Origin: Emiliania huxleyi CCMP1516
Lineage: Eukaryota
DNA: 64,000 nt
NCBI RefSeq assembly: GCF_000372725.1
Contig: NW_005201551.1
Coordinates: 218,520 to 282,519 of the forward strand
Reading direction: 5' to 3'
A program made the translations under genes and the position numbers. Below, one piece after another: positions 1,224 to 55,110 of this stretch. Each line of letters starts with the position of its first letter. Within the stretch, counting starts at the first letter, position 1. The notes under the pieces are model-generated. The model was not told the DNA's origin, made no database searches, and worked only from the letters and a program-made list of their open reading frames with translations.

Positions 1224-6783
<5,560 letters not shown>

Positions 6784-13037: not shown

Positions 13038-14326
13038 ATGGGCTGCGGCACGAGCAAGCCGGGCCTGTTTTACGAGGAGAAGCTGAAGCAGTGGCGCAAG
13101 CGCGGCGGCGGCGACCTGGAGCCGGTCCTCGCGAGCGGCGCCGTCGCCCTCCTCGACGCGCAGTGGATCATCCGCCACGCCGAGGCGGGCGGTGTCCTCA
13201 CTCACCGCCAGGCGCTGCCCGAAGAGGCCTTCCTCTCTTTCGCCGACCTCGTCGAGGCGACCACGGGTGCTGGTGGGCTTCCCGTCGCCGCGCTCTCCTA
13301 CCCGTGGCTGACCAAGGACCACCCCGACCCGCGCGGAGCCAACCTCTCCCGCGTCGCGAGGGCGCTCAAGGCCCTGCTCACTAACAATGACGGCAGAATC
13401 ACGCGGCTCGGCGTGTTTTGGGACTTCGGCTCGCTGCACCAGCACCCCGACCCCCCCAACGGCGTCCTGCGCACCGAGGAGCAGAACGCGCTCTTCAAGC
13501 AGGGGCTGAGCTGCCTCGGCACGCTCTACTCCCACCAGCACTTGTTCGTGCTGCGGCTGACCTCCTTCCCGGACGGCCACAAGGCGGAGGACCAGCCCGA
13601 GGGCACCAACGTGGCCAAGTACGTTGACCGCGGCTGGTGCTTCACCGAGCAGTGCTGGGCTGGCTTGACAAAGGCTGGCGCCCTCTCGCTCGACCTCGGC
13701 TTGATGTGCGCCGGCAAGGAGTACGACGCCCGCAGCCTCCGAGACGACTGCACCCAGGACGGCAGCCGGCGCCCTCCGCTGCTGCCGTCTGCGTTCGCGG
13801 CGGAGCTGGAGTCGAAGAGCTTCACCAACGGCAAGGACGACAAGCCGCTGGTGAAGCGGCTGTACGAGGCCGCGTTCAAGGAGCAGTTTGGCAAGGCGAC
13901 CGTGCTGTGGTACAGCGGCCTCGGCTGGGGCGACGCGGAGGCGGCGCAGCTGGCGGAGGTCCTCGCGAGCGGGGCAGCGCCGCGGCTCGAGAAGCTCGGT
14001 CTCGGCGGCAACAAGATTGGCGACGAGGGCTGCAAGGCGCTGGCCGCCGCCCTCAAGGAGGGGGCAGCGCCGCGGCTCGAGGAGCTCTATCTCTTCTGCA
14101 ACGAGATTGGCGACGAGGGCTGCAAGGCGCTGGCCGCCGCCCTCAAGGAGGGGGCCGCCCCGAGCTTGAAGGCGCGAGACGCCACCCCTCGCCACACGCC
14201 CCTCCCCCACCCAATGCTGATCGCACCTCCCCTCGCGTGCAGGAGCTCCGCGTGGACAACAAGAACAGGGAGCAGCCTGAGCTGGTGGCCGTGTGCGAGG
14301 AGCGCGGCATCTACCTCAGCCGCTGA
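13038..14326 (+). CDS. HET/TIR-like domain plus LRR protein, copy 1 (exons 13038-14171, 14243-14326; 405 aa)
   Basis: Starts MGCGTSK; HET-like motifs ALSYPW, VFWDFGSLHQ, LGTLYSH, YVDRGWCFTE; LRRs LxxLxLxxNxIGDEGCKALAAAL x2; phase-0 71-bp GC-AG intron conserved in all copies. Confidence 0.85.
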
Positions 14327-14890
14327 GCTCTCCAGCCCCGGCCGGGCGGCGAGGGCGCGGGGCCCGGCGGGACCGCCGCGCGAGCTCGGCAGAGAGCGAC
14401 AGACCCTGCTGCTGCGGAGCACGACGTACAGGGGCGGTGCCGGGCGCGCGCGGCTGCGGGTTTGGTGGGCGGGCGGGCGGGTGGGTGTTGTGAGGAGGAG
14501 GAGGAGGAGAGGGGGGGGGGGGGGGGGGGGTTTAGCCCCCAAGGTGGAGGGGGGGGGGGGGGAAAGGAAAAGGGGGAAGGGAGGGGGGTTGGCATGGCGG
14601 GGGAGCGGTGCAGCTGCTGCTCAGAGGGGGGGAGAGAGGGCGGTTGCAGCCTGACGCAGGAGCGGAGCGGTGCCGGTGGAGGGAGCGGTGTCCAGAGTCC
14701 AGTTCGCGTAATTTAGTCCTGGAGACCGGCGCGCCGCGGCATCTCATTTTGCGTTACGACATACGAGCTTGCAAGTGTGGTGTGTGCGTCGCCTGCTGTG
14801 GATCTGGATGTGGTTTGGACTTTGGTTGTTGAGCTTTTTTATACCTGAATCGGGGATTGCTGTCTTCTTCCAGCGCCTTCGATGATTGTT

Positions 14891-15137
14891 ATGAAACAAA
14901 CGCAAGGCGGACACAAGCACATCGCTCTCTCGGTCCCACAGAGCATCCCGCACAGGCCCGCACACCCGCCGCACACCCGCCGCCCGCCGCCCCCGCGCGC
15001 GCCGGGAGAGACGGGAGTGACAGTTTGGGACGGCGACAGACGAGATACCTCGCACTCCCCATGTGCGAGAACGCAGAGAGAAAATGAAAGCGCCGTCCGG
15101 CCCCCAAGTCCGGCTCCGCCCCGAGCTGACCGATCTA
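14891..15137 (+). repeat. dispersed ~250-bp repeat (also ~58824-59057; split halves at ~40833-40990 and ~46063-46170)
   Basis: Shared gaaacaacgcaaggcggaca...gggagtgacagtttggga...caagtccggctc blocks. Confidence 0.8.
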
Positions 15138-15164
15138 AAGACTTGGTCTTGGAGCACTTGGATA

Positions 15165-15711
15165 GGGGGTGCACAGCGTCCCAATCTAAAATCTGAGGAT
15201 TCAGGATTGAGGCATCGCTTCAGTGAGGCCAAAGTGAGTTTATGGATGTGTGAGAACGGTACGGGACACGAGGAGTCACGCGGACCGACTCGTCGGCGAC
15301 TCTGCTGCACGCCGTTTCAGATTTTTCTCAGCGTGAGCGAGACGTGGAAGAGTGCCACCGTCGGGTAGGACGGGTCGGCCCGGAGCATCTGAGTAGCCGT
15401 CGTGGTCGCGGCGAGCAGCGCCGGCCACTCCGGCGCCGCGTCGGCAACATGGGAGCATGTCCACCGCCACATCGCGGTCGCAGCGCTGTTTGTCGACCAA
15501 ACGCCGCTATGTACCTTTTCGGGCAAACCATCGATCTGTATGTCGATTTCGACTTGACGGCGGCATGGAGGCATCATGTCTCCATGCCGCCGTCAAGTTG
15601 GAGCCAGTCAGCGGCGACCACAGCGCTCAGAAAGGTACATAGCGAGCTATTCAGAGTCAAGCGATTGCGCGAAATCCCACACTGGTGGATTTTGGGGCGC
15701 TGTGCACCCCC
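15165..15711. mobile_element. MITE-like element with GGGGGTGCACAGCG terminal inverted repeats
   Basis: Left gggggtgcacagcgtcccaa; right ttggggcgctgtgcaccccc; no clear target-site duplication. Confidence 0.7.
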
Positions 15712-15843
15712 TTGAGCACTTGAGCACTGGATAGGGCCGATTCCGCGTGGTACGGGACCCCTCGATCGTCTCGCCCTCCCTCACTGGTGTGTTCATTGGG
15801 GGGGGTCATAACAAACACGGTACAGGATCGAGGTGCACGCTGC
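15712..15843 (+). repeat. dispersed repeat (element end?), copy at 36763-36892
   Basis: ttgagcact...tagggycgattccgc...gttcattggggggggtcataacaaacacggtaca...ggatcgaggtgcacgctg in both; the start is also inverted at ~56577-56606. Confidence 0.8.
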
Positions 15844-16442
15844 CGAAGCAGTGTCTCCCCCCTCTCCCCAACGGCGATGGCGGTNNNNNNNNNNNNNNNN
15901 NNNNNNNNNNNNNNNNNNNNNNNNNNNNNNNNNNNNNNNNNNNNNNNNNNNNNNNNNNNNNNNNNNNNNNNNNNNNNNNNNNNNACTATCGACCCGACTG
16001 ATTGGCAGCATCAAAGCCGACCCCATGACGGTCCTTCAGCCCCACGAGGTAGGCAGTTGCGCCCTGATCTCGGTCCAAGACGGCCAACGCCGTGTCCGGC
16101 ACCTGCTGACTGCTTCACGGGGATGCCCCCCCCGGACACATGCTGCAGCCCCGAGTGGATGTATTGGTCGTTTGTGGGTCCCCCAAGACTACTCTAGTAG
16201 GGGCCGGGCGCTTGAGCGTCGGCGGTACACCTGTGCAGATGTTGCACGGGTGAAATGGCTCCTCGTACAGGGTAGGAGGCAGGTGGTGGGTTTGAGTGTC
16301 GTGAGTGCTTGCAGCCGCGAGTGCAGCACCGTTTGTGACTCCCATGGATGCAGTTGGGTGGGGCACGGTGCTGGGGGGCGGTCCGGTGCGCCACAACAGC
16401 CTCCCTGGCTGACCCCCATCCAGTTCGGCACCTCCATCCTTA

Positions 16443-17478
16443 GGGTGCCCACAGGACCCAAAAGAAAATAGCTTTCCGGCTCAAAAAGGGACGCACGAGG
16501 CAAATCTGATGTTGGATTGTTCCAATAGGAGCGAGGCCTCTTCCGTTGGGGGACCGAGTACATAGGAAACGAGGGTTCCCCGGTTTGTCACGCGCGAGCA
16601 CGAGCGTGACACTGCACGTGGCGCCGAGCGCCCGCGGCACAGACCTTGTGCAAGCCGACCCTCGGTGACCACGCCGGTCCGGACCGATGGCGCTCGGTGT
16701 GGAGCAAGCAAGACCCCCCCCCCCCCCCCCTCGGCGCGCGCTCGCCATTCCAACGGCCGCCAGGAGCACCAAGAGGACTCCTCATGGCTGTGGTCAAGTG
16801 GGCTTCGACCGGCCTCGACTGGGGGGGCGGGTTGTCCCGGCTGCGGACACCTTCTGCAGCCCCCTGGGCCCGTGACAGCACCCCAAAACTGCCCCTCGGC
16901 GGCATACAGCACTGCCAGCCAGCCTCTTCCTCCTCCTAAGGGCTGTACTATAGGCCATATTGCGCCGCCTCCTACTGGCAGCCGGGCGGGCGCGCGCCGC
17001 GGGCGCCTCGGCGCGCGCACGGCTCGCAAAGTTCGAACGAGTACTGCCGCCCGGCCGCCTCAAGGCTGCCGGGCGGCAGTACTCGCCTCGCAAGGCGCGC
17101 ACCGGCTGCTCTGGCTGCTGCGCCGGCGGCCGCTGCGCTGGCCGCTGCTGCGCTGGCTGGCGAGCGGTACGGCCGCCGGCGGCCGCTGCACCCGCGCCTT
17201 CCCTCGCGGGCGCCGTCGCGCCGCGCGCGCCCAACTCTGCTGGCACACGGCACGCGTCGTCACACAGCCGCGGAGAACAGGCGGTGCTGTGCGCGAAGCG
17301 CGCGCGATCTCGTACTTTTAAGGCTGGATCCGGCCATTCCAAGGGTATACCTTTGAGAATCCCCAGCGTCCCGCCCTCCTAGTCACACTCTCAATATCTC
17401 GACTATCCAACATGAAGTGCTGCGATCGGGAGTGCCCCATTTCTTTTTTCCTTTCTTTTTTTGGTCCTGTGGGCACCC
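16443..17478 (+). mobile_element. ~1.04-kb non-autonomous TIR element, copy 1
   Basis: TIR gggtgcccacaggacc / ggtcctgtgggcaccc with TA on both flanks; near-identical inverted copy at 57724-58759. Confidence 0.9.
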
Positions 17479-17543
17479 TAGAGTGGGACTCTGTGGGCCA
17501 GCGTGGAGTGTGTGGCCTGGCTTTGGTGGTGCAGATGCTGCTG

Positions 17544-20500
17544 CACTGGTCAAACTATTAGCCTCATAATGAGGAAAAGGCTAATAGCGATTTCAAATAG
17601 TGCTACTATTAGCTCAGAGGGGCTAATAGTGCAATTATTAGGTGTGCTAATAGCCGATGTCCTAATAATGGACCCTCATAATGCGCACTTAGCGATTTCG
17701 CGATTCATGCCGCATGCTTCACGGCGCGGCCTAATAGCTGGGCCTCATAGCGACATGCCGGCCACGGAGCTCGTCGCGCCCATGCCGCCATCGGCGCCCG
17801 CTGACCATCTGGCGTGCAGCGAGAAACCCTCTGCGAGCTGGCGCCAGCGTGGTGGTTTGGCGGCGTGCGGCGCAGCGCTGGTCTTCTTGGCGTCCATCCA
17901 CGGTGATCGCGGATCCGGCGAGAAGCCTTGCGCTGCCATCGGTCAAGGCGCAGCTGGACGAGACGATGCGAGAGGAAGGCCGGCGGCTTTTCGAAGCGCA
18001 GCACGACCTGCCGCGCCCGGCGCGCTGATGCCGACCACTGCAGGGTTTGTTGTCGACGAAGCTCGCTAGGTGTTTTTCTTGTTTGACTTGGCGATTTGAG
18101 AGTCGCGCACAGCACACACTGGCCAGTGTGCTCCTCGCTCGCTCCCCGCTCGCCTCGGTGACCTGTCGCCCACCAGCGCGCGGCGACCGCGCGCACACCA
18201 CCAGCGCGTGGCGACCGCGCACACCGCGCCCGCCGGCTCTCCGCCCTCCTCACCACCCGTCGGTATTGTTCTCCCTGGCGTGCGCGAGTCGCTCGTCCTA
18301 GGGAGCGAACTAGTGCGAGTCACTAGTGTACTCGAATGCAAGCGAAGGGTAGCTCTCGTCTGCTGCTGCTGCTGCTGCTGTTGCTCTCGCTACTGCTGTT
18401 GCTATTGAAGCTGCTGTCTAGTCGCTACGCAATTGTCGCTGTCTGTTAGCTACGGTTGCTGTGCTAACGTGCGCATCGTGTTCACGCACACCGCACCACT
18501 TTCCGCCCGGAAGGATAGGAGTGGTGCATTCGGGTGCGCATCGTGTTCACGCACGTGTGTGTGCTACCGCAGAGTGGCCTGGAGGCGACAGATTGCTTCG
18601 TAGAAGCGCTCCTATGCCTTATCCCCGGGAGGTGTCGCAGCGTGCGAGCGGTCGTCGTCGGCAGGGAGATTGTCTCATCTCTTGAGCGAGAGATTAGCAT
18701 CTCGCTATAGTGCCATGCAGCGGCACAAGTCGAGCTGTGAACACGCGGTGTGAACGAGCTCGGCGGGGAGATTGTCTCATCTCTTGAGCGAGAGATTAGC
18801 ATCTCGCTATAGTGCCATGCAGCGGCACAAGTCGAGCTGTGAACACGCGGTGTGAACGAGCTCGGCAGGGAGATTGTCTCATCTCTTGAGCGAGAGATTA
18901 GCATCTCGCTATAGTGCCATGCAGCGGCACAAGTCGAGCTGTGAACACGCGGTGTGAACGAGCTCGGCGGGGAGATTGTCTCATCTCTTGAGCGAGAGAT
19001 TAGCATCTCGCTATAGTGCCATGCAGCGGCACAAGTCGAGCTGTGAACACGCGGTGTGAACGAGCTCGGCGGGGAGATTGTCTCATCTCTTGAGCGAGAG
19101 ATTAGCATCTCGCTATAGTGCCATGCAGCGGCACAAGTCGAGCTGTGAACACGCGGTGTGCACGAGCTCGGCGGGGAGATTGTCTCATCTCTTGAGCGAG
19201 AGATTAGCATCTCGCTATAGTGCCATGCAGCGGCACAAGTCGAGCTGTGAACACGCGGTGTGAACGAGCTCGGCAGGGAGATTGTCTCATCTCTTGAGCG
19301 AGAGATTGGCATCTCGCTATAGCCATGCAGCGGCACAAGTCGAGCTGTGCGCGCAATGGCTCTCAGCCGCCGCCCGCAACGGGCCGGGTGTGTCGCACTT
19401 GCCGCTCGGCAGCGGTGGCTAACGCAGTTAGACCGTGCATCATACACACGGTGTCACACGCTTTTACACCCGCAACGGGCACACAGCCGTGTATTGGACT
19501 TGCCGCTCGGCAGCGGTGGCAGACGCCGCTGGCCCATGTATCACTCACATGGTGTTACACACAACATGTCTGGCCCATGTATCACTCACATGGTGTCACA
19601 CGTACTGCCACCCGCCACGGGCGCAGTCGTGTCGCACACGCCATCCGCAGCGGAGGCTAGCGCCTCTAACCATGTATCAGTCACATGGTGAGATCGCATC
19701 GTGCTCGCAATTCGGCAGATCGCTGAGGCAACGAGGTCGCGCGGGCTGGCGGGGCTGGGGCGCGGGCGATCGGGCTCTTCGCGGCGTGGGCCGGCTGCAG
19801 GCAGCGCGCCGGCTATGCATGCTAGGCCCCGAAGGGGCCTGCCCAACCACCTACGGTTCGCAGGGTGTGGCGGGAGGGGCGAATCGTGCAGTGTGAGCGA
19901 GCGAGCAAACGCAGCGGGGCAGCGTGCATCGCTCGCGAGCAAGGAGATCGGCGATCGACTTTGTGAAAGCCGAGCACGTGAGGCGCCGTCACAGCTGTCG
20001 CTGTGAATGGCTTATCGGATGGCTACCTGCGAGCGGGCTGCAGGTGGCCGGGAGGTGGGAACCAAGGCCGTCGCGATCGACAGGCCTACTCGTACAATAC
20101 GGGCTCCGCTCCACACCGACCAAACCTCTCGGAGCTAACGCTGTCCGCAGGCATGTGAGGCGGAACGGCGACCGCACAGCGCGCGCGGGTGTGGAGAACG
20201 TGATCAACCGCCGGGCTTCGGCCCCTCGCCGGCGCAGCGCCGGCGAGGTCCTGGGTCATCCCCGGGCGGCGGTCCGGGCGGCAGCAGATCTCTGCGCCGC
20301 CCGCATCCTGTTCGTGATCAGGGCGTGCGCAGTTTGAAATTGCAAGGTCCGAGCGCGCGCCCGCGCCCGCCGCGCCCCGCACGCAGCCACATCCTGCGTT
20401 CTGCGGCGGCAGCGGCCTTATCTCTCTCTCTCTCTCCCTGCTCTCCCAAGCCGTGCGCACCGTCGCCGCGCGCGCGCGCCGCCGCAAGCTGCCGGGCTGA

Positions 20501-22296: not shown

Positions 22297-23149
22297 TGGT
22301 GGCCTCGAGCTGCGCCGCGTCGGCTAGGATCTCCTTCCTCAGCAGATCGCCGTGACATGAGGCCACCATCGTGTGGGATCGTGACCGCCGGCCAGCAGCC
22401 CACGTGTAGCGCGACTCTTGGGCAGGATGAAGTGAGGGCATTTGGTCCTCGCTGAAACACGCAGAATTTCACCTGTGCCACAGCATGGGGAGGACGGTTC
22501 ATGTCCGCGCTGCGATTGACCCCGAGCAAGTCGCACGGGCCCGATCGACTGGCAGCGGAGTCGAGGACCGGCCGTGGCACCGAGCTCCATGGCAGTAGGA
22601 TGAGCAGGGCCACCATTATACGCCGCCCAAAAAGGCGGCGCCCGTCGGTGGTGTGCACCCCCTAACTTGGAGTGCAGTCATTAACCTCACGCCCAGGACC
22701 GGGGAGCTGAGAAGCGCACCCAGTTGGCCGGACGCTCGGCATCGGGTTACGGGCAAGAGAGCCCTAGCCCCGGGGGTGCGCGGTCGCAGGGCCATAACAC
22801 GGGTCTCCGAGGGTTAGTTCTGCGCTCCGGGTTTCCCCTAGCTGCGGAACGCCCCCTCTACTCGGAGCTAGTGATACGAGAATACGCACCGTCCCCACGC
22901 AATACCTTACTCGAAGATAATACGAGAATACGCAGCTGCGATGCACAACATGACGCCAAACACACGATTGCAGCACAGCCGTGCGCGCCGCCGCTCGCGC
23001 CGCCCCGCTCCTCGCTCCATATGTTCTTTACACACGCACCCCTTTGGGGTTACAGCCCCCCCGCCCACGATTTCTTTTCCTTGTTCTTTTCGGTTCTTGT
23101 TTTTCAACCCCGCTTCGCTGTTTATGTTCTTTTTTTTCCCACGACACCG

Positions 23150-23526
23150 GTGAAAAGTGGGACGATAAGTGGTGGCTGGACATCGAGGAGTACGGGGATG
23201 CCAACTTTGAGGCGCGAAAGGCGGCTGGGTTGGCGGCGCATGCGGCGGCGCTCGCGGACGGCCTCTCTCGGGAGGCGGCTTGCGACGCTGCTCTTGCGGC
23301 TGTCGAGGCGCTCCTGCTTAAGCAGGAGCCATGGAGGCTCAAATTCCTCAAGGCGGAGGAAGGCGTGGGAGAGGCGGACGCGAACCACCGCCGCCGGCGG
23401 GCGGCGAAGGGGCGCGCCAAGGAGGAGCGCGAGGAGCGCGCGGAGCTCGCTCCATTTGGGGAGGATTACGGCTCGGGAGGGCTAAATCGTGCAGAGATCG
23501 ACTTGTTCGATGACGATGGCCCCTGA
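23150..23526 (+). CDS. coding-like fragment of unknown function, probably element cargo
   Basis: EKWDDKWWLDIEEYGDANFEARKAAG...DLFDDDGP*; flanked by dispersed repeats (23051-23104 matches 12522-12575; 23576-23616). Confidence 0.3.
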
Positions 23527-23774
23527 GGGGGCCGTCTGCTGTGTCCTTTGTAGTGCCAGTCCCGTACCCGGTGTCGTGTGTACTTGTTACGTGAAAACCC
23601 GCTGGGACCCGGACGCCAGCACACACGGCTAGACGAGAGAGTAAAAAAATTTTTTTGGTGTGCCGGTGATAGCACTAGCACGCGCCAGTTCGCACCTGTG
23701 TCGAGCCTGTATACTGTGAGAGAGACTCTTTTGTTTAAATTCTTTTTTCAAATTCTTTTTTTTGCAGCACAGCA

Positions 23775-31938: not shown

Positions 31939-34186
31939 ATGCTACCCCTCCTTCACCATCTGCTCCACCATCTCCGGCGAGTCAATCATGAAGTAGTTAA
32001 CTAATTAATCAGGTCTACTACCTCTCCTTCACCATCTGCTCCATCTCCGGCGGCGGTATCGTCTACCAGGACCTTTGATTAATCAATGAGCTCTTAGTTA
32101 TGGCTTCATTCGCTGATGATCAACACGTCATAACGGATAGGACTTTTGGCGCTTCACGCCCCTCACCGCCGTCGGCTTCGTCTCCGGCTGCCTCTTCTGC
32201 TTCAGCGGTGTGTCCACCTCACCACCAATCGCGGTACCGAGGGTGATGAAGTGTTACTCACCAGCTGCTGACGTGTACTAGGTGTCTGCCGTCATCACCG
32301 AGCGCGGTACCGAGGGTGAATCAGAGTGAACTTCCAGATTTTTGATCTGTTCTGTAGGTGTCTACCTGATCACCAAGCGCGGTACCGTCGCCGCCGGCCG
32401 CGGCGTCTCTGATGCGCCGCCCGGCGATATTTCTCTTCTTTTGCTAGCAGAGAAAAAAGAAAAAAATAGGCTTCTCGGATGCGCCGCCCGCCGCGCCGCC
32501 CTACGTCGGTGCCGCTATCGGCCCAGGTGAACTATTCATTATTAAATATTAATATTAACTGTGATTACTATTCGTATGTCGGAGCCGCTATCGGCCCAGG
32601 TGGGCTATTCATTATTAAATATTAGCTGTGAGTCTTGCCTCTTGGCCGTATGTCGGAGCTGCCATCGGCCCAGGCGTCAATAATTCACTATCGCCAATGC
32701 GGTGGGCGGTTGACTCTCACGCAGGCGGGCAGCAGCTGGCCGCCGCCATCTGCGAGTCTGCGCGGAGCGTGGCGCCGTCGCGCCTGGCGCGGTTGGGCAA
32801 GGCGGTTTCTCTCGACGAGGGGAGGCGGGGCGTGTCAGGCCAGCGGCTGCTGGAGGAGGTCGGCCTGCCCTCCTCCTTCTCCTGCTCCTCCGGCGCAGCG
32901 CTGTCCGACGTCGTCATTTCAGACCCACTCGGCGCCCCCACGCTGGGCGACCCCTACCTCTGCTCCCCCTCTCTTCACACCTCCCCGCTGTGAACAGGCG
33001 ACCCCACGCTGGGCGACCCCTACCTCTGCTCCCCCTCTCTTCACACCTCCCCGCCGTGAACAGGCGCCCCCACGCTGGGCGACCCCTACCTCTGCCCCCC
33101 CTCTCTCTTCACACCTCCCCGCTGTGAACAGGCGACCCCACGCTTGGCGACCCCTACCTCTGCTCCCTCTCTCTTCACACCTCCCCGCTGTGAACAGGCG
33201 ACCCCACGCTGGGCGACCCCTACCTCTGCTCCCCGCCCCGCTCCAACTCCGCGCCTGGCCATGGCCAGCGGAGGGCGGCGTCGTACGAGTCGCCAGAGAG
33301 ATTGCGAGAGCTCAAGTCACGGCGGCTGCCCTCGCGCCACCCTTCGCGGCGGGGCGCAGAGCCGCGGCAGCTGGACTTTGGCGGCGCGGCGGGCGGCGAC
33401 GGCGGCGACGCGGCGCTGCTCGGCGCGACGTTCCCGCGCGGTGCGCCGCACCAGCTGCAGCGGCTTACTTCGGGAGGGATGCGGCGGATCTCGACGTCGA
33501 TCTCGACGTTGCTTGACCGCGATATCTCCGTCGACCTCGACGCGACGGCGTCGCTCGAGCGGGGCATGTCTGGACACAACCCACCTCCAATGGTGCTCGG
33601 CGCCTCCACCTCGCAGCTGCATCTCTCTCCGCTGCTGGCAGTGCCTCGCCGGCTCCAACCGCGCCGGCGCGGCAGCGTGTGTTCACAGCTCGCGGTGTGA
33701 ACAGGCTCGCACGTGGTCACCCTCAGTGCGGAGGAGCGCCGGCGGAGGCTTCAGCGCCGCCTCGATCGCCGAGGCCGCGGCGGCGGAGGCGGCGGCGCCC
33801 GCCACCGCCGGGCGGAGCAGCAGCGGCGGAGTGCTGGGGGGGCGCGGGTTTGGCTTCCGGGTGAGCGGGCTGGTGGGTCGGCCGCCCGATTTGCTGTGAC
33901 GTAGGAGGGCGTCCCCGCAGAGCGCGGTGTTGCCGCGCCCTCGGCGCCCGTGCAGCGCACTCACGTACCTACCTGGCCTAATTTCCAAGGTAAGGTAAGG
34001 TATATAGAGGTAAGGTAAACTCTTCTCCACACACACGCGAGGGGTGGTGGGGCGCAAGGGGGGGCACTAATTTCCATGCGAGAGACGGCCAGATCTGTCG
34101 TGGCAGGCAGCCAAAGAGATTAAAGTCTCACGACGCGCAGCGAGCACAGTTTGGTGAGTCAGATCAAACCGTATCTTTTCACGGCA
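31939..34186 (+). pseudogene. segmental duplicate of the NIPA gene 3' half (source 26115-28461)
   Basis: Collinear near-identity from atgctacccctccttcacc to gtatcttttcacggca, introns included. Confidence 0.9.
33988..34066 (-). mobile_element. 79-bp 5'-truncated retro-insertion, (CCTTA)n-tail family
   Basis: Flanked by ctaatttcca at 33978-33987 and 34067-34076; absent from the paralogous site at ~28344. Confidence 0.85.
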
Positions 34187-40000: not shown

Positions 40001-40537
40001 GTGACGTCGTATGATCTCGTGCGATCTCGTGCGATCTGGTGTGATCTCGTGTGAAGGAGCCCGCCGGAGTCGAGGCCGGTCAGCGAAACGAAGCCCTGCT
40101 TGTCCGCCAGGTCAAAGAGCGGGCCTGGCGCGTCGGCGCACTGCGGGTCCGCCGCCGTCGGGGCGGGGTCGCCCGTGCTGTGGACGAACCCTCTCGCGGA
40201 GAGCGCCGCGGTCACGTCTGCAAAGTTCTCCGCGGCGGTTCCGAGCTCCTGCGGCGAGCGAGTGAGTCGATGGGCCAGGGTCGGGCGCTCTCGGCGCTGC
40301 GGCAGCGGCTGTGGAGGACGCGACATGGGTAAGCGTGCGCAGCCGCACCTGCGCAATGACGACATCCACCGAGTCGAGGTCAGGGAGGCCGCTGTACGCA
40401 GACAGATTGGTGCCGCTGATGGCGTCGGCTATCAGGCCGAAGCGCGTGGCGCAGTTGTCGCATCCCGAGAGCGGAGCCACGTCGCGGCAGGCAAAGTTGA
40501 CGGTCAGCACCGTCAAGGTCGTGGCGGTCGACGGCAT
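37035..40537 (-). CDS. endonuclease/exonuclease/phosphatase (EEP) family, sphingomyelinase-like, with C-terminal TM helix (multi-exon)
   Basis: LTVLTVNF, VDVVIAQ|EL, DSGGL|VTFSRLP, VIDLH, IRTYQMSEI, VVMGGDFN, LLDYL follow the EEP motif order; ends WLVIALPLLGGVLLLACCGAALCYWRRRR. Confidence 0.75.
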
Positions 40538-40653
40538 GCGCCGGGGCTCACAGCCACGCTCACAGCGACTCGTGGAAAAGCGCGCGCTGCGTGCGTCCCT
40601 TGTGACGCGAGCCACTCTTTTCTTTTTTTTGATTAACTACGTCACTTCGAAGT

Positions 40654-40820
40654 GTGTACGCCAACTCAGGGTGTGTGGCAGCCAGCTGGCTGTGTGTCTT
40701 GTGAGCTTGTTTGTGTCTGTGTGTCGCTCGTGCGTGTCGTCATCATCTGTCTTGCGTCCACCCATACCGCGTTGGTGTCCAGTCCGAGCCTGGCTGTTCT
40801 TCACCTTTCTACCTACCTAC
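40654..40820 (+). mobile_element. 5'-truncated retro-insertion, (CCTA)n-tail family
   Basis: Ends ctacctacctac; 9-bp duplication cttcgaagt at 40645-40653 and 40821-40829. Confidence 0.85.
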
Positions 40821-41498
40821 CTTCGAAGTTCGGAAACAACGCAAGGCGGACATGGCATATCTTTCTCGGGCCCACAGACATCCCGCACACCCGCCCCCCG
40901 CGCGCGCGCCCCGGCCGGGAGAAAGGGGAGTGACAGTTTGGGACACAGACGAGTACTCCATGTGCAAGAACGCAGATAAAGGACTGGGGGGGGTGGGGCG
41001 GGGTTGTGGGGTGGGGTGGTAATGTCGGGGTGGGGAGTGGGTGGGCGCCGGAGTGGGAGTGGTGTGGCTGCTCCTGTGGTGCGGGCGACGGCTTCTGAGG
41101 AAGCCGTCGCCCGCGCCTTCCCTTTCGCGCGAATCGTGTTGTGCGACCGCCTTTTGTAAAATTGTTTTTCAGGGGAGGGGCTAGGGTGATTAGAGTTCTT
41201 TTTAATCCTTCCATGTACTAAGGTTACCACCAACACCTCAATATCCAGATACCCCGGCGCTGCGCGTGCGTCCAGCGGCAAGGAAGAAGAAACCACCCAC
41301 CACCCACCCACCTACGTCAAACCCCACCCACCCACGCCAAACCCCACCCGCCCACCCACCAAACCCCCGCGCGCCCCCACCGTCGCTGTACGTGCTTCGC
41401 TCCTTCGCAGCCGCAGGGTCTGCTGCCCTCTGCCGTGCTCTCAGGCGGCGGTCCCGCCAGACCCTGCGCCCTTGCCGCCCGGCCGGGGCTGGAGAGGC

Positions 41499-42780
41499 TC
41501 AGCAGAGGTCGATGCCGCGCTCCTCGCACGCGGCCACCAGCTCAGGCTGCTCCTTGTTCTTGTTGTCCACGCGGAGCCTCTGCACGCGAGGGGATGTGCG
41601 ATGAGCATTGGGTGGGGGAGGGGCGTGTGGCGAGGGGGGCGTCTCGCGCCTTCAAGCTCGGGGTGCCCCCCTCCTTGAGGGCGGCGGCCAGCGCCTTGCA
41701 GCCCTCGTCGCCAATCTCGTTGCCGAAGAGAGAGAGCACCTCGAGCCGCGGCGCTGCCCCCTCCTTGAGGGCGGCGGCCAGCGCCTTGCAGCCCTCGTCG
41801 CCAATCTTGTTGTCGAAGAGAAGGAGCGTCTCGAGCCGCGGCGCTGCCCCGCTCGCGAGGACCTCCGCCAGCTGCGCCGCCTCCGCGTCGCCCCAGCCGA
41901 GCATGCTGTAGCGCAGCACGGTCGCCTTGCCAAACTGCTCCTCGAAGGCGGCCTCGTACAGCCCCTTCACCAGCGGCTTGTCGTCCTTGCCGTTGGTGAA
42001 GCTCTTCGTCTCCAGCTCCGCCGCGAAGGCAGACGGCAGCAGCGGAGGGCGCCGGCCGCCGCCCCAGGTGCAGTCGAATCGGAGGCTGTCGCAGTCGTAC
42101 TCCCAGCCGTCGCGCATCTTGCCGAGGTCGAGCGAGAGGTAGCCAGCCTTTGTCAGGCCAGCCCAGCTTGACTCGGTGTAGCACCAGCCGCGGTCAAAGT
42201 ACTTGGCCACGTTGGTGCCCTCGGCCTGGTCCTCCGCCTTGTGGCCGTCCGGGAAGGAGGTCAGCCGCAGCACGCGTGTGTGTTGGTGGGAGTAGAGCGT
42301 GCCGAGGCAGCCCAGCCCCTGCTTGAAGAGCGCGTTCTGCTCCTCGGTGCGCATGACGCCGTTGGCGGGGTCGGGGTGCTGGTGCAGCGAGCCGAAGTCC
42401 CAAAAGACGCCGAGCCGCGGGATGAGGTCGGGACGGCTGAGCAGGGCCTTGAGCGCCCTTGCGACGCGGGCGAGGTTGGCTCCGCGCGGGTCGGGGTGGT
42501 CCTTGGTCAGCCACGGGTAGGAGAGCGCTCCGACGGGAAGCCACGGGACGTCGCTGGTCGCCTCGACGAGGTCGGTGAGGGAGAGGAAGGCCTCCTTGGG
42601 CAGCGCCTGACGGTGGGTGAGGACGCCGCCCGCCTCGGCGTGGCTGATGATCCACTGCGCGTCGAGGACGGCGACGGCGCCGCTCGCGAGGACCGGCTCC
42701 AGGTCGCCGCCGCCGAGCTTGCGCCACTTCTCCAGCTTCTGCTTGTAGGTCAGGCCCGGCTTGCTCGTGCCGCAGCCCAT
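41499..42780 (-). CDS. HET/TIR-like domain plus LRR protein, copy 2 (exons 42780-41650, 41579-41499)
   Basis: MGCGTSK; ALSYPW, VFWDFGSLHQ, RGWCYTE; two full LRRs; 70-bp GC-AG intron. Confidence 0.85.
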
Positions 42781-43757
42781 CGCTTCGTCTGCCTGTGTAA
42801 GGCCGATCGACTTTGAGCACCTGTGTGCCTGTCAACAGCGGCTCGGGCAGCGGCCGCAAACGTGAGCTGAGGGCGTGTCAAGATTTTTGTCACCGATCTT
42901 CAACTGAGCCCCCCCGGGGGACCATCGGTGCCTGCAGAGATTGTGAAAGAGGCGCTCGGACACACGTGAACGAAACGGAGGCGCCTGGATTTTTGTTTGC
43001 GATTTTCCTGAATTCTTTTTAGTAGCTGAACAGTCAAAAGCTTGCACCGCTGCTGGAGCTCTTTCGCAATCTCAATCTCCCGCTTCTGGCGGATTCGGAG
43101 ATTCGGCGAGATTCGCAATCCTCAGCAGAGGACGGCGCTCGCAACCTCCCGCGTTTGAGATTCGGAGATTGGCCGATATTAGCAGACGGCGGCGCTCGCA
43201 ATCTCCCGCATCTGCGCCGCGACCGCCGGCACCTCCAGCGCCAGGCAGATCGCGTGCATCTCCCGGTAGGACCTGATTATGATTAGCGCCCTGGTTATGA
43301 TGACTAAACTTGAGAATTCGGCAGAATGGCATGATCCCGGCAGGACCGCTTCGCTTCCGCCGGGGCATTCGCGTCGACTGTGTGGAACTGGTAGAATCGG
43401 TAGAGGGCGCACGCCTATAAAACAACCGGGCGTTGAAAGAAAAAGAGGAATCCTCGCCGCAGTGCAGAGCACTGCGTGGTGAGTACGAGGGCTACGAATA
43501 CGATGAAAAAGAATACCGAATCTAGTGTCTGGGCTACGAATACGCTCAAGACCGCGGGCCGAGGAGGCAAGATACGTGTCGAACGCAGAGGCCCGCAGTC
43601 AGCCTCTACGGGCGCGCGCCAGTGCGTTGCAGAGGGTGAGGTCCACCAGCGCCTCCGCCTCGGCCTGAGGTGAACGACGGTCCGGGGTAGCGTCTCGTGC
43701 GAGTGGCTCCACGTAGACAGGAGCCCCGGCGTTGAAAAGTGCTGGACAGGGTGAGAA

Positions 43758-43915
<158 letters not shown>

Positions 43916-44709
43916 GCGTTCGTGTGTTTGTATGTGCGGTGTGTGTGCGTGTGCGCGCCTTCCCGAACCCGCCCCGGGCGGCCGCGTAGCAAGCCAGCAG
44001 CGAGCCGAGGGCGGCGGCCTAAAAAAGAAGAAAAGCCGGCCGGTAAAAAAGAAAACACGGCGGGGCGGTGCGAGCAGCAGGGCGGGGAGACGTTGAGGGT
44101 GGCCGGAGGCGGGAAGACGTCGGAGGCGGCGGTGTCGTCGGCGGTGGAGAAGCAGCCGCCGGCCGCAGCGCAGGCCTGAGGCAAGGTATAAGGTAAGGTA
44201 AGGTAAGGCACAAGGCAAAGCAAGGTAAGGTCAGGTAAGGGGTACTCCACGTTGTGGCGCGTGTGTTTTCCACGTTGAATGATGTTTCCACGTTGTGCCT
44301 CTCTCTCAGGTCTCGGTGGAGCATCTGAGGAGATGTGGGGAGATATAAGGAGGTAGGTATTCGGCATCTAGGGGCGCAGGCAAGGTCGAAGGCGAGCTAT
44401 GAGGAGATGTGGGGAGATATAAGGAGGTAGGTATTCAGCATCTAGGGGCGCAGGCAAGGTCGAAGGCGAGAGGGCCGATGCAGCTGTCCTCCCAGTCCAC
44501 CAGCGCCGCCTGCCGAGATCAGCGGAGATCAGCCGAGATCTAGCTTGACAGCCGGCCTCCTGGTCCACCAGCGCCGCCTGCCGAGATCAGCGGAGATCAG
44601 CCGAGATGAGCCGAGATGAGCCGAGATTGACAGCACGTGCAAACTGGAAATGGAGCCACATCTCGGCAATATCTCGGCCATATCTCGGCATATCGCCGCC
44701 TGCGAGGTC

Positions 44710-45305
44710 TTGAGGTCGAGCAGCACCTATAATTCAGTATTAAGTACTCTCATAATGCATTATCAACTAAGGGTTAAGAGGTCTCGAGGTCGAGCAGCAC
44801 CTATTCAGTTATTAAGTACTCTCATAATGCATTATCAACTAAGGGTTAAGAGGTCTCGAGGTCGAGCAGCACCTATTCAGTTCTTGACGACGAATGAAAC
44901 TACGCTCAAACTATAAATAAGAGGTCTCGAGGTTGAGCGGGCACCTATTCAGTTCTTGACGACGAATTAAACTACGCTCAAACTATAATTAAGAGGTCTC
45001 GAGGTTGAGCAGCACCTATTCAGTTATTAAGTACTCTCATAATGCATTATCAGTTGATAATTAAGAGGTCTCGAGGTTGAGCGGGCACCTATTCAGTTCT
45101 TGGCGACGAATTAAACTACGCTCAAACTATAATTAAGAGGTCTCGAGGTTGAGCGGGCACCTATTCAGTTCTTGGCGACTAATTAAACTACGCTCAAACT
45201 ATAATTAAGAGGTCTCGAGGTTGAGCGGGCACCTATTCAGTTCTTGGCGACGAATTAAACTACGCTCAAACTATAATTAAGAGGTCTCGAGGTTGAGCGG
45301 GCACG
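44710..45305. repeat. ~70-bp AT-rich intronic tandem array (paralogue ~49905-50365)
   Basis: Recurring gaggtctcgaggt(t/c)gagc...cacctattcagtt with two interleaved spacer types. Confidence 0.9.
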
Positions 45306-46851
45306 TTGTCCGCGTACGGATCACCGTGCAGCAGCCTGCGGACATCAGTTATTCATCCTCAACTATTACTCGTTGATGGATGTGCAGCAGTCTGGGGGCA
45401 GTGTGTGTCTCAGAACCGTCACTGTTTTGTGTCGGAGGTGTCTCGGAGGTGTCTCGGAGGTGTCTCGGAGGTGCCTCGGAGGTGTCTCGGAGGTGTCTCG
45501 GAGGTGTCTCGGAGGTGTCTCGGAAGTGTCTCGGAGGTGCCTCGGAGGTGTCTCGGAAGTGTCGCGCGCCCCCGTGGCAGAGACGCGTCGGCAAGCACCG
45601 CCCGAGCCGTGTCCAGCCTACGGTTAGTCATTAGTGATAAGCGAATTCAGTCTGCCATAAACCAAACTGACCTTGAATAGGGAGTCTGCCTTCGGCTCCC
45701 AGGATGTCCTCTATGAGGACGGCGGCGCCGTTTGAGCGTCCGTTACGCGTGTGCCTCTTTTGCCACCCGTGTCGAACCTGTGTGCTGTGTGAGAGAGTTG
45801 TGCTTTCGTTGAACTCTACGATGTCCAACCGGCCGGCGGCAAACGCCCACGCGACGAAACCTGTGGGCTCGTCGGCCCGCCACACCTGTGGAAAAAGAAA
45901 CAAGTTCGGCCCAAAAGGAAACGCGACGCGGCTGTTCGACTTGTCGGCCAGCCACACCTGAATAGCAAGGCAATGTGGGGTGGAAGACAGAGACTTTTAG
46001 GCGGCATGTCGGCTCCTTTGGCCCGCCACACCTTGTGGAAAAAAGAGAAACACGTACCGGAAAGATAAAGGACTGGGGGTGTTCCGGCCCACAAGTCCGG
46101 CTCATGCGCCCCAGGCTGACCATCTACCGCACTGGCCACTTCCGCCCCCTCGCTCCCGACCCATCCACCTCGCCTCGGGCCGCGCCGCGCGATCTCGGGC
46201 GATCTCGCGCTATCTCGGGTGATCTCGGGGCCGCGCCGCGCTATCTCGGGCGATCTCGGAGCGTCGCTCGCGCGGCGGCACACCTGCTCAAAAAGGGCGG
46301 GTTGTGGGGTGGATCGGGTCGGGGCGGGGCGGGGCGGGGTTGCTTGGGGCGGGGTGGGGCGGGGTTGTGGGGTGGGGTGGTAATGTCGGGGTGGGGAGTG
46401 GGTGGGCGCCGGAGTGGGAGTGGTGTGGCTGCTCCTGTGGTGCGGGCGACGGCTTCTGAGGAAGCCGTCGCCCGCGCCTTCCCTTTCGCGCGAATCGTGT
46501 TATGTGCGACCGCCTTTCGTAAAATTCTTTTTCAGGGGTGATTAGAGTTCTTTTTAATCCTTCCATGTACTTAGGTTACCACCAACACCTCGATGTCCAG
46601 ATACCCCGGCGCTGCGCGTGCGTCCAGCGGCAACGAAGAAGAACCACCCACCACGCCCACCCACCTACGTCAAACCCCACCCACCCACGTCAAACCCCAC
46701 CCGCCCACCCACCAAACCCCCGCGCGCCCCCACCGTCGCTGTACGTCGTGCTTCGCTCCTTCGCAGCCGCAGGGTCTGCTGCCCTCTGCCGTGCTCAGGC
46801 GGCGGTCCCGCCAGACCCTGCGCCCTTGCCGCCCGGCCGGAGCTGGAGAGC

Positions 46852-48047
46852 TCAGCGGCTGAGGTAGATGCCGCGCTCCTTGCACACGGCCACCAGCTCA
46901 GGCTGCTCCGTGTTGTCCACGACGAGCGCCTGCACGCGAGGGGAGGTGCGATGAGCATTAGGCGGGGGGAGGGGCGTGTGGCGAGGGGGGGCGTCTCGCG
47001 CCTTCAGGCTCGGGGCGGCCCCCTCCTTGAGGGCGGCGGCCAGCGCCTTGCAGCCCTCGTCGCCAATCTTGTTGAGCTGGAGATTGAGCTCCTCGAGCCG
47101 CGGCGCTGCCCCGCTCGCGAGGACCTCCGCCAGCTGCGCCGCCTCCGCGTCGCCCCAGCCGAGACGGGTGTAGTACAGCTTGGTCGCCTTTCCAAACTGC
47201 TCCTCGAAGGCGGCCTCGTACAGCTGCTTCACCAGCGGCTTGTCGTCCTTGCCGTTGGTGAAGCTCTTTGTCTCCAGCTCCGCCGCGAACGCAGACGGCA
47301 GCAGCGGAGGGCACCGGCCGCCGTCCTGGATGCAGTCGCCGATGAGGCTGAAGTAGTCATACTCCTCGCCGTCGCGCATCTTGCCGAGGTCGAGCGAGAG
47401 GGCGCCAGCCTTTGTCAGGCCAGCCCAGCTCTGCTCGGTGAAGCACCAGCCGCGGTCAAAGTACTTGGCCACGTTGGTGCCCTCGGCCTGGTCCTCCGTG
47501 TTGTGGCCGTCCGGGAAGGAGGTCAGCCGCAGCACGAAAGTGCGCGGGTGGGAGTAGAGCGTGCCGAGGCAGCCCAGCCCCTCCTTGAAGAGCGCGTTCT
47601 GCTCCTCGGTGCGCATGACGTGGTTGGCGGGGTCGGGGTGCTGGTGCAGCGAGCCGAAGTCCCAAAAGACGCCGAGCCGCGGGAGGCGAGTGAGCAGGGC
47701 CTTGAGCGCCCTTGCGACGCGGGCGAGGTTGGCTCCGCGCGGGTCGGGGTGGTCCTTGGTGAGCCACGGGTAGGAGAGCGCTCCGACGGGAAGGCTGCCA
47801 TACTCGGTGGTCGCCTCGACGAGGTCGGCGAGGGAGAGGAAGGCCTCTTTGGGCAGCGCTTGGCGGTGGGTGAGGACGCCGCCCGCCTCGGCGTGGCTGA
47901 TGATCCACTGCGCGTCGAGGACGGCGACGGCCCCGCTCGCGAGGACCGGCTCCAGGTCGCCGCCGCCGCGCTTGCGCCACAGCTTCAGCTTCTCCTCGTA
48001 GGTCAGGCCCGGCTTGCTCGTGTCCGGCTTCTCGTGCCGCAGCCCAT
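46852..48047 (-). pseudogene. HET/TIR-like domain plus LRR, copy 3; frameshifted after codon 5, one full LRR
   Basis: 14-bp imperfect duplication (acgagaagccggac) gives MGCGTRSRTRASRA*; downstream frame intact; 72-bp intron 46930-47001. Confidence 0.75.
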
Positions 48048-48527
48048 CGCTTCGCCTGCCTGTGTAAGGCCGATCGGATGGTGCTCAACAGCGGCTCGGG
48101 CAGCGGCCGCGGCCGCAAACGTGAGCTGAGGGCGTGTCAAGATTGTTGAGATTTTGAATTCTTTTTTTTGAGAGAGCGCCTTCGTTGTTAATAGTGCAAA
48201 CCCAATGGTCTCTCGCGAGCGGTCCGTCGTCGCAGTCGCACACACTCACACGCCACGCCTCACCGCGCGCCCACCCGCTGCCCCGCCCAGGCGGGAAAGA
48301 GATGAGGAGAAGGGACAGCGAAGGAGGAGGCACAAACACGTATGGGAGGAATTCTTTTTAGCAGCTGAACAACAATCAAATCTGGACCGGTTGCACCGCT
48401 GCTGGAGCTCTTTCGCAATCTCAATCTCCCGCTTCTGGTGGATTCGGAGATTCGGCGAGATTCGCAATCCTCAGCCGAGGACGGCGCTCGCAACCTCCCG
48501 CGTTTGAGATTTGGAGATTGGCCGATA

Positions 48528-53147
<4,620 letters not shown>

Positions 53148-53248
53148 GGGTGGTGCACGGTGGTCGCGAGGCTCCGGAGCCGGCGAGCCTTGACACGTGG
53201 ATTTGCAAGAAAAACAAACGGTAATGCTTTCCCCGGCCCTGGATGTGA

Positions 53249-53417
53249 AGGTTGCAGCGAGAAGCGGCGAGAGACTGCGAAAAGAGATACGAAGAGGCAG
53301 ACTCCCCAGGGTGGGCGACGGCTAGCGCATCACACTCCTCTCCTTAAAATCCCTGTGTGGTGGCGGCGTGCCGTTCTCCCATCCCTCCCTTGGGTTGTCT
53401 GTTTTCTTTCTTTCTTT
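53249..53417 (+). mobile_element. 5'-truncated retro-insertion, (CTTT)n-tail family
   Basis: 13-bp duplication gccctggatgtga at 53236-53248 and 53418-53430; ends ttttctttctttcttt. Confidence 0.85.
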
Positions 53418-53717
53418 GCCCTGGATGTGAGGCAAATGACTGCACTCCAAGTGCTCCAAGTTATCCCCGCTCACGAGGCGTGAATCCGTTAGGATTCTTG
53501 TAAAATTGATGGGGATGATGGTTGTGTCGGCGAGCACTACGGTGTTGGCGGATTCGATCATCTGCCTGAGGACGACTTCCTTTATGGCGAGGGCGACGGC
53601 TTCTAAGGAAGCCGTCGCCTGCGCCTTGTCTGTCGTGTGAATCGTGCGTGTGCGAAAGGCTTAGCTTGTAAAATTCTTTTCCACCTTGTCCTTGGCAAAT
53701 TCGATCGACTTCTCACG

Positions 53718-55110
53718 ATGGGCTGCTTCTCCAGCCGCGTCGAGGCCCCGACCGAGGAGCTGCCCGGCCCTCCCGCCGTCGAACGCGACGCCCCGACGCC
53801 CGCCGAAACCGCCGCGCCGACGCAGCCGGCCGACGCCATCCCCTCCGCCACCGATCTCGGCGTCGATGAGGAGAAGCTGGAACTGTGGCGCAAGCTCGGC
53901 GGCGGCGACCTGGAGCGTGTCCTCGCGAGCGGCGCCGTCGCCGTCCTCGACGCGCAGTGGCTCATCAGCCACGCCGAGGCGGGCGGCGTCCTCTCCCACC
54001 GCCAGGCGCTGCCCAAAGAGGCCTTCCTCTCTTTCGCCGATCTCGTCGAGGCGACCAACAAGTATGCGGGTTGGCTTCCCGTCGGAGCGCTCTCCTACCC
54101 GTGGCTGACCAAGGACCACCCCGACCCGCGCGGAGCCAACCTCTCCCGCGTCGCGAGGGCGCTCAAGGCCCTGCTCAGCCGCCCCAACCTCACCCCCCGG
54201 CTCGGCGTCTTTTGGGACTTCGGCTCGCTGCACCAGCACCCCGACCCCGCCAACGGCGACATGCGCACCGAGGAGCAGAACGCGCTCTTCAAGCAGGGGC
54301 TGGGCTGCCTCGGCACGCTCTACTCCCACCAGAACACGTTCGTGCTGCGGCTGACCTCCTTCCCGGACGGCCACAAGGCGGAGGACCAGGCCGAGGGCAC
54401 CAACGTGGCCAAGTACTTTGACCGCGGCTGGTGCGCCACCGAGAACGCCTGGGCGAGCCTGACAAAGGTCGGCGCCCTCTCGCTCGACCTCGGCAAGATG
54501 CGCGCCGGCAAGGAGTACGACTTCGACAGCCTCACCCTCGACTGCACCCAGGAGGGCGGCCGGTGCCCTCCGCTGCTGGCGTCGGCGTTCGCGGCGGAGC
54601 TGGAGAAGAAGAGCTTCACCAACGGCAAGGACGACAAGCCGCTCGTGAAGCGGCTGTACGAGGTCGCCTTCAAGGAGCAGTTTGGCAAGGCGACCGAGCT
54701 GGTCTACGACAGCCTCGGCTGGGGCGACGCGGAGGCGGCGCAGCTGGCGGCGGTCCTCGCGAGCGGGGCAGCGCCGCGGCTCGAGATCCTCTATCTCGAA
54801 GGCAACAAGATTGGCGACGAGGGCTGCAAGGCGCTGGCCGCCGCCCTCGGCAAGGAGGGGGCAGCGCCGCGGCTCGAGAGGCTCTGGCTTCACGGCAACC
54901 AGATTGGCGACGAGGGCTGCAAGGCGCTGGCCGCCGCCCTCAAGGAGGGGGCCGCCCCGAGCTTGAAGGCGCGAGATGCTCCTCTCGCCACACGCCCCTC
55001 CCCCGCCCAATGCTGATCGCACCTCCCCTCGCGTGCAGACGCTCTGGGTGGGCAACAAGCAGCCTGAGCTGGTGGCCGTGTGCGAGGAGCGCGGCATCAG
55101 GCTGCGCTGA
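53718..55110 (+). CDS. HET/TIR-like domain plus LRR protein, copy 4 (exons 53718-54968, 55039-55110)
   Basis: MGCFSS start with a longer Pro/Ala linker; same HET motifs (RGWCATE); two full LRRs; 70-bp GC-AG intron. Confidence 0.85.

What the first reader, a model, noticed from the sequence alone, without database searches (positions are those of the whole stretch)
13038..55110. Cluster of four HET/TIR-like-LRR genes with hypervariable LRR binding faces: candidate algal immune-receptor family
Seen: four paralogues share an almost invariant scaffold (GDEGCKALAAAL, WGDAEAAQLA, PWLTKDHPDPRGANL). The x positions of the LRR strand differ in every repeat: KLGLGGNK, ELYLFCNE (copy 1); TLLLFDNK, VLSLFGNE (copy 2); ELNLQLNK (copy 3); ILYLEGNK, RLWLHGNQ (copy 4). 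The first repeat varies too: VLWYSGL, VLRYSML, KLYYTRL, ELVYDSL. Established: these x residues form the concave ligand-binding face of LRRs. ALSY.W / FWD..L.Q / LY / RGW..E are HET (PF06985-type) motifs, HET is a TIR-related cell-death effector in fungi, and WCxxE matches the TIR catalytic-glutamate motif. Inference: a sensor-effector receptor with no NACHT/NB-ARC domain, under diversifying pressure from viruses or other non-self. I do not know of this architecture being described in haptophytes.
Basis: partly seen in the sequence, partly recalled or inferred. Interest (0 to 1): 0.92.

Follow-up and report, generated by a model that had tools for sequence, protein, structure and literature searches.

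The report
Algal TIR-like–LRR hypervariable receptor family
Four copies (one broken) of a large marine-algal gene family join a predicted TIR/HET-like domain directly to leucine-rich repeats, and a few codons in both domains change protein sequence far faster than neutral, so these are likely minimal non-self sensors, though neither their target nor their enzyme activity has been shown.

Summary
The four paralogues, their motifs and the variable LRR positions are real. Copy 3 is frameshifted just after its ATG. They belong to a family with at least 37 named Emiliania huxleyi gene models and relatives in a dinoflagellate, a diatom and Chromera. The N-terminal domain misses Pfam HET (0 of 74 and 0 of 33 proteins). 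Its confident model matches TIR/SEFIR or nucleoside-deoxyribosyltransferase folds in 11 of the top 12 solved structures, but weakly (Z 5.0-5.6), and it keeps an invariant RGWxxxE glutamate. There is no NACHT/NB-ARC domain. Positive selection is strong (omega about 12 at 5% of codons; LRT 203, or 96 with multi-base hits allowed). Family members are spliced in public runs. No link to viral infection was found. The scan noted this architecture before on other DNA (a dinoflagellate gene; a TIR-LRR family in a flagellate). Verdict: a likely NOD-less sensor-effector family; ligand and activity untested.

The parts
13038..14326 (+). Copy 1: intact gene, 405 aa; MGC N-terminus, TIR/HET-like domain, one degenerate plus two full RI-type LRRs and a capping repeat; exons 13038-14171 and 14243-14326
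13272..13748 (+). Predicted TIR/NDT-superfamily core of copy 1 (residues 79-237): SYPW at 13296, FWD..L.Q at 13416, RGWCFTE at 13629-13649 with the candidate catalytic Glu204
13902..14171 (+). LRR strands of copy 1; x positions 291, 293, 294, 319, 321, 323, 324 inferred under positive selection
14172..14242 (+). 71-nt GC-AG intron; a joint skipping it is seen in contigs of 4 of 4 public runs laid at 88% likeness (paralogue pool)
41499..42780 (-). Copy 2: intact gene, 403 aa; intron 41649-41580
46852..48047 (-). Copy 3: one full LRR; 14-nt duplication after the ATG breaks the frame (likely pseudogene); intron 47001-46930
53718..55110 (+). Copy 4: intact gene, 440 aa, longer Pro/Ala-rich N-terminus; intron 54969-55038
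40986..50952 (.). Tandem duplication of a roughly 5-kb unit (40986-45888 and 46347-50952) carrying copies 2 and 3; serves as an internal clock

Best explanation
These genes encode members of an expanded, positively selected family that fuses a predicted TIR/HET-superfamily domain directly to 1-8 LRRs, and they likely act as membrane-tethered non-self sensors in which ligand binding would switch on the TIR-like effector without an ATPase step. Shown: gene structure, family expansion, absence of a NOD domain, and site-specific excess of amino-acid change in both domains. Predicted: TIR-like fold; a beta-sheet running from the TIR-like core into the LRRs. Inferred: the variable loops before each core strand, one helix face (231/232/235/236) and the LRR x positions form one composite binding surface, away from the invariant S87/W90/D129/Q135/R198/W200/E204 pocket. 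Inferred: MGC acylation tethers the protein to a membrane (motif recalled). Untested: NAD+ or other N-glycosidic hydrolysis by E204, cell death or signalling as output, and the identity of the ligand.
For: Family: 159 hits, 32 of the 120 listed named as E. huxleyi models; 37 named models over; named relatives in Prorocentrum, Seminavis and Chromera. Models: pLDDT 94.4 and 95.6. Fold: 11 of the top 12 of 48,161 chains are TIR/SEFIR (6) or deoxyribosyltransferases (5), aligned over model residues about 69-230. Glu204 is invariant in 33 of 33 diverse domains and present in 208 of 238 full domains by regex. A Walker A motif occurs in 1 of 238 and an LRR-like motif follows the domain in 179 of 238. 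Selection: M1a vs M2a LRT 203/207, omega about 12, 16 sites of which 7 LRR and 9 N-terminal; LRT 96, omega 7.5 with double and triple hits allowed. Invariant codons next to variable ones are not more variable (0.023 vs 0.045), so this is not a mutation hot spot. Tandem copies 2/3 differ 3-4% in near flanks and 4.2% in scaffold codons, but 64% at hypervariable codons, with 21 of 22 residues changed. A separate clade of metagenome paralogues (tree) gives LRT 179 with sites 112, 215, 232, 289, 293, 294, 319, and all 12 of 12 comparable N-domain hypervariable sites fall in its top 15%. Aromatic residues make up 22% of hypervariable vs 12% of scaffold positions. Remote cyanobacterial relatives lie beside TIR and/or TPR genes in 3 of the 4 loci, of which 3 had neighbours scanned.
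Against: No Pfam HET or TIR hit; no sequence match to solved TIR structures; Foldseek found nothing at E<=0.001. VIA Z of 5.0-5.6 is below the tool's typical chance best of 7-8, and TIR cannot be separated from deoxyribosyltransferases. None of 35 family gene IDs is in the virus-infection DE table of PMC12489294, with the search control found; this is a different strain and best-hit annotation, so a mild negative. Only 1-2 full LRRs in 32 of 47 paralogues make a small sensor. Site incompatibility is high (0.66-0.68), so the tree is unreliable and omega may be inflated by gene conversion. Variable loops are partly expected on any surface.
Confidence: 0.6

Rival explanations
1. Allorecognition or cell-contact identity system: polymorphic receptors that tell kin, mates or prey apart, as fungal het genes do, rather than sensing pathogens.
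For: HET-like motifs; fungal HET genes are multi-copy, variable and often act without an NLR (PMC10197012 passages). No virus-induction signal.
Against: Dozens of paralogues within one genome fit a repertoire better than an allelic identity locus; the same review notes only 5 of 125 Podospora HET loci act in allorecognition.
Confidence: 0.15
2. Target-guided enzymes or decoys: the variable surface picks a protein or nucleic-acid substrate (or baits an effector), and the TIR/NDT-like site modifies it locally, without cell death; this includes selfish poison-antidote behaviour.
For: Deoxyribosyltransferases score as well as TIRs; selected sites lie in the enzyme domain itself, and 202/205/206 next to E204 are polymorphic.
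Against: Domain order and cyanobacterial TIR/TPR neighbours resemble defence effectors; no antidote-like linked gene was detected.
Confidence: 0.15
3. Relaxed constraint, gene conversion or transposon cargo: a neutral amplified family whose surface residues drift.
For: One of four copies is broken; high site incompatibility; repeat-rich, gene-poor surroundings.
Against: Changes at variable codons concentrate in positions 1-2 (0.585, 0.631, 0.279 vs scaffold 0.047, 0.030, 0.052); up to 16 amino acids per site; 15-fold excess over flanks in a tandem pair; replicated in a second clade; 77% of codons at omega 0.04; no transposase or RT domain in 94 ORFs.
Confidence: 0.07

Closest known systems
Fungal HET domain proteins (Pfam PF06985; Podospora HET-E/D/R, Neurospora TOL, PIN-C, HET-6)
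   Same: Motif order S-Y-x-W / W-D-x-x-x-x-x-Q / R-x-W-x-x-x-E (HET motifs recalled, not from a call); TIR-related; multi-copy and variable; homologues known in haptophytes (PMC4986451 section 16).
   Different: No PF06985 hit; fused directly to LRRs with no NACHT; MGC N-terminus; selected sites inside the effector domain.
Plant TIR-NB-LRR receptors
   Same: TIR-type effector, LRR sensor with selected concave-face residues, clustered paralogues with birth and death.
   Different: No NB-ARC switch; only 1-8 RI-type repeats; TIR similarity is remote (Z about 5).
Enzymatic TIRs (SARM1, SpbK, ThsB) and nucleoside 2'-deoxyribosyltransferases
   Same: Best structural matches of the N-terminal core; conserved Glu after an RGW motif.
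   Different: 7-16% identity, rmsd 3.3-4.4 A, large additions; activity untested; residue-level equivalence of the Glu not checked.
Gephyrocapsa (Emiliania) huxleyi TIR genes induced in virus infection (PMC12489294)
   Same: Same species as the closest named relatives; proposed immune role.
   Different: Those 15 genes were Pfam-detectable TIRs and lacked LRR and NBS domains (passage read); this family is invisible to those profiles.

Membership tests
HET domain (PF06985) | Profile match above the curated cut-off | tested here: not met
   0 of 4 window proteins, 0 of 74, 0 of 33 N-domains at E<=10; cyanobacterial relatives also 0 of 4
HET domain (PF06985) | Three conserved blocks with S-x-x-W, W-D..Q and R-x-W..E | tested here: met
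   S87, W90, Q135, W200, E204 invariant in 33 of 33; the HET consensus itself is recalled, not fetched
HET domain (PF06985) | Induces cell death | not testable with these tools
   needs expression assay
TIR/SEFIR/NDT superfamily | Parallel five-stranded alpha/beta fold superposable on TIR | tested here: inconclusive
   11 of the top 12 VIA hits are TIR/SEFIR/NDT but Z is 5.0-5.6; Foldseek gave no significant hit
TIR/SEFIR/NDT superfamily | Conserved catalytic glutamate | tested here: inconclusive
   E204 invariant; structural equivalence to the TIR Glu not readable from the output
TIR/SEFIR/NDT superfamily | NAD+ or nucleoside N-glycosidase activity | not testable with these tools
   biochemistry needed
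NLR (STAND) receptors | Central NACHT or NB-ARC NTPase | tested here: not met
   no such Pfam hit; Walker A in 1 of 238 relatives
NLR (STAND) receptors | C-terminal repeats with positive selection on exposed x positions | tested here: met
   LRR_6 above cut-off in 4 of 4; 7 LRR sites with posterior >0.95
Transposon cargo | Linked transposase/RT or terminal repeats around the gene | tested here: inconclusive
   no such Pfam domain in 94 other ORFs of 150 aa or more; no long inverted termini in 40500-51500; spliced or decayed elements could be missed

The most novel reading that the evidence does not exclude
A germline immune repertoire of single-chain receptors in bloom-forming algae, in which an enzymatic TIR/HET-like domain and a short LRR form one antibody-like variable surface that gates the enzyme directly, with no ATPase switch; independently expanded and selected at the same positions in several marine protist lineages.
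Probability: 0.35. Interest if true: 0.88.

Novelty: new variant of a known kind. Interest (0 to 1): 0.72.

Why it matters
[quoted passage not shown] This family is missed by Pfam TIR/HET profiles, carries a textbook arms-race signature, and offers a short list of residues and a single glutamate to test. Selection inside the effector domain points to a receptor design that differs from NLRs. It also offers a small soluble route to the still-unestablished biochemistry of HET-like domains (PMC10197012 says their enzymatic activity remains to be established).

Tried and rejected
No whole genome is held, so no genome census was possible. Viral contigs: 22 pattern matches, none a relative. Fold searches of the full model returned only LRR proteins. 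Foldseek of the N-domain against PDB and viral structures gave nothing at E<=0.001. Sequence and profile searches of PDB with the N-domain gave nothing useful. ESM Atlas gave only unnamed, mostly haptophyte clusters at 0.85-0.86, a lead only. The representative-library counts are inflated by LRR matches and were not used as family size. Homodimer prediction: no verdict. No RNA holder on record was listed. Copy-specific expression, and an independent check of the copy-3 duplication, could not be read from short contigs. A distance-decay recombination test was not significant (p 0.36 and 0.99) although incompatibility was high. The Prorocentrum cluster collapsed to 3 sequences and was too few for a selection test. 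Rfam: 0 matches. A local mutation hot spot and multi-base mutation artefacts were tested and do not explain the signal. Indel-rich loops (75-80, 115-122) were dropped from the codon models. Six of 15 close loci were left out as frameshifted or too short. The N-domain site class was chosen from proteins that overlap some of the 13 sequences, so only the four-copy figure and the codon models are free of that circularity. Nine literature searches listed no paper describing this architecture; the library lacks most subscription papers.
Full report
Observation. Six-frame motif search finds the quoted scaffold and LRR strands at four loci. Copies 1, 2 and 4 are intact two-exon genes of 405, 403 and 440 aa, with a 70-72 nt GC-AG intron before a last exon that adds one more variable strand. 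Copy 3 has a 14-nt duplication just after its ATG that ends that frame after 14 codons, and its long frame has no Met before residue 157. Copies 2 and 3 sit in a tandem duplication of about 5 kb. No other copy lies in the window.

Family. A search with the N-terminal region returned 159 proteins; 32 of the 120 listed are named E. huxleyi gene models, most at 72-87% identity, and 37 such models appear over. Named relatives come from Prorocentrum, Seminavis and Chromera. Metagenome contigs gave 239 relatives, 78 loci kept; viral contigs gave none. Five weak bacterial loci were found; four encode cyanobacterial proteins with the same motif order, and the three whose neighbours I scanned lie beside TIR_2 and/or TPR genes. 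Among 238 fetched proteins that cover the core, 179 have an LRR-like motif after it and 1 has a Walker A motif. Of 47 close paralogues, 24 begin MGC, a dual-acylation-type start (motif recalled); LRR number runs from 0 to 8, and 61 repeats show 55 distinct x-position combinations.

The N-terminal domain. Pfam finds only LRR_6 in the four proteins, no HET or TIR in 74 members, and nothing relevant in 33 isolated domains. AlphaFold2 models are confident (94.4 full; 95.6 domain) and show short strands at 83-87, 125-127, 170-173 and 217-219 alternating with helices. Against 48,161 solved chains, 11 of the top 12 matches are TIR/SEFIR domains (SpbK, SARM1, MyD88, IL-17R/ACT1, TRR-2, IL-1RAcPb) or nucleoside deoxyribosyltransferases, at Z 5.0-5.6 and rmsd 3.3-4.4 A over 103-125 residues. 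These scores lie below the tool's usual chance maximum, and Foldseek found nothing significant, so the assignment rests on the consistency of the hits plus motifs. S87, W90, D97, Q135, W200 and E204 are invariant in 33 of 33 diverse domains. I conclude a likely TIR/HET-superfamily domain, but not a Pfam HET member. In the full model, LRR proteins align from residue 168 or 204-216 onward, which suggests that the last core strands continue into the LRR sheet; this is inferred from aligned ranges only.

Selection. Among 47 close paralogue proteins, 213 of 317 positions are nearly fixed, and 26 carry 2.3 bits or more: 8 LRR x positions and 18 N-terminal ones (22, 76-80, 116-120, 168, 170, 215, 231, 232, 235, 236). 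In the four window copies, dN is 1.21 at LRR x codons and 0.84 at N-domain variable codons, against scaffold dS 0.063 and dN 0.043. My own codon-model implementation on 13 sequences, indel loops excluded, gives M2a over M1a by LRT 203 (F3x4) and 207 (F61), omega about 12 at 5% of codons, and 16 sites: 18, 29, 170, 213, 215, 227, 232, 235, 236, 291, 293, 294, 319, 321, 323, 324. Allowing double and triple hits leaves LRT 96 and omega 7.5; neighbouring invariant codons show no excess synonymous change. Site incompatibility is high (0.66-0.68) with no distance decay, so the tree is poor and exchange between paralogues is possible; omega values are approximate. A tree-free control agrees: tandem copies 2 and 3 differ by 2.8-4.2% in near flanks (6.5% in the repeat-rich far flank, 35% in the poorly aligned stretch just upstream of the ATG), 4.2% in scaffold codons, and 64% at hypervariable codons. 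A separate clade of metagenome paralogues at about 45% identity (tree) shows LRT 179 with sites 112, 215, 232, 289, 293, 294, 319 (14 loci), and its most variable N-domain sites include 12 of 12 comparable E. huxleyi ones (18 sequences). Part of that overlap may simply be surface loops.

Expression. No run on record as RNA was listed. In contigs of runs guessed to be RNA, a joint skipping the 71-nt intron appears in 4 of 4 runs, and joints across the copy-3 intron in 3 of 4 other runs, with varied letters in the last LRR strand. This shows spliced family members, not expression of these particular copies. In the differential-expression table of a virus-infection time course (PMC12489294, supplement 1, searched by term), 0 of 35 family gene IDs searched (of 37 known) occur, with a control ID found. 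Four LRR_6 rows occur there, which I could not assign to the family. The sequence supplement could not be read.

Mechanism. The variable loops each lie just before a core strand (76-80, 116-122, 168/170, 213-215), so in a parallel sheet they would line one edge; 231/232/235/236 have the spacing of one helix face; the LRR x residues are by established LRR geometry on the concave side. The invariant polar residues follow the strands or flank E204. I infer a composite variable binding surface on one side and a conserved pocket on another, with ligand binding activating the pocket by clustering or a conformational change at a membrane. The geometry, acylation, activation, chemistry and ligand are all inferred or untested. 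Rivals are allorecognition, a target-guided enzyme or decoy, and neutral amplification; the last is largely excluded.

Literature. PMC4986451 (passages and section 16 read) reports HET homologues in Haptophyceae and HET-TIR similarity, with no LRR fusion mentioned in that section. PMC9153377 (2 passages) notes the shared glutamate. PMC10197012 (passages) says HET enzymatic activity is not established. PMC12489294 (passages, supplement searches) found G. huxleyi TIR genes without LRR or NBS domains. PMC4236053 (passage) cites TIR and LRR proteins in E. huxleyi lipid rafts. PMC3834299, PMC11685980, PMC2784329 and bioRxiv 10.1101/2022.03.16.484565 (passages) did not describe this family. Nine searches (listings only) showed no paper on this architecture. 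This scan's own notes hold a dinoflagellate HET-like-LRR gene and a flagellate TIR-LRR family; these are unchecked AI notes and not counted as evidence.

Verdict. A real, selected, NOD-less TIR/HET-like-LRR family; a new variant of effector-plus-LRR receptors; immune role likely (0.6) but unproven; interest 0.72.

Noticed in passing
L007:971-3259 and L014:2-2017: A relative with additional, diverged HET-like domains in tandem upstream of the family domain and LRR.
   Followed up: partly
P0140/L049, P0188, P0051, P0119: N-terminal add-ons vary among relatives: EF-hands, PF08238 (Sel1, name recalled) in a diatom, Dpy-30.
   Followed up: no
L079, L080, L081, L083 (about 2620-3940): Unnamed 380-aa cyanobacterial proteins with the same motif order, next to TPR, TIR_2, vWA and AAA genes; possible uncharacterised defence modules.
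   Followed up: partly
P0125, P0322-P0327: Seven Prorocentrum cordatum models from one cluster with near-consecutive accessions and near-identical N-domains; isoforms or a tandem array.
   Followed up: partly
P0254: A named model on a 6-kb contig matches copy 1 at 97% over most of the N-domain but is annotated as fused to a helicase; likely an allele with a mis-joined gene model.
   Followed up: no
window:24075-24812: Exon of a NIPA-type magnesium transporter gene.
   Followed up: no
window:16441-17480 and 57722-58761: A 1-kb segment repeated in inverted orientation at 96%; also 12628-12801 / 53246-53417 at 98%, upstream of copies 1 and 4. Possibly non-autonomous repeats.
   Followed up: no
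window:26115-28353 and 31939-33987: Duplicated 2-kb segment with a 66-nt tandem array of differing copy number.
   Followed up: no
window:10641-11164, 18658-19349, 44704-45304, 49908-50364: Minisatellites of 70, 102 and 72 nt.
   Followed up: no
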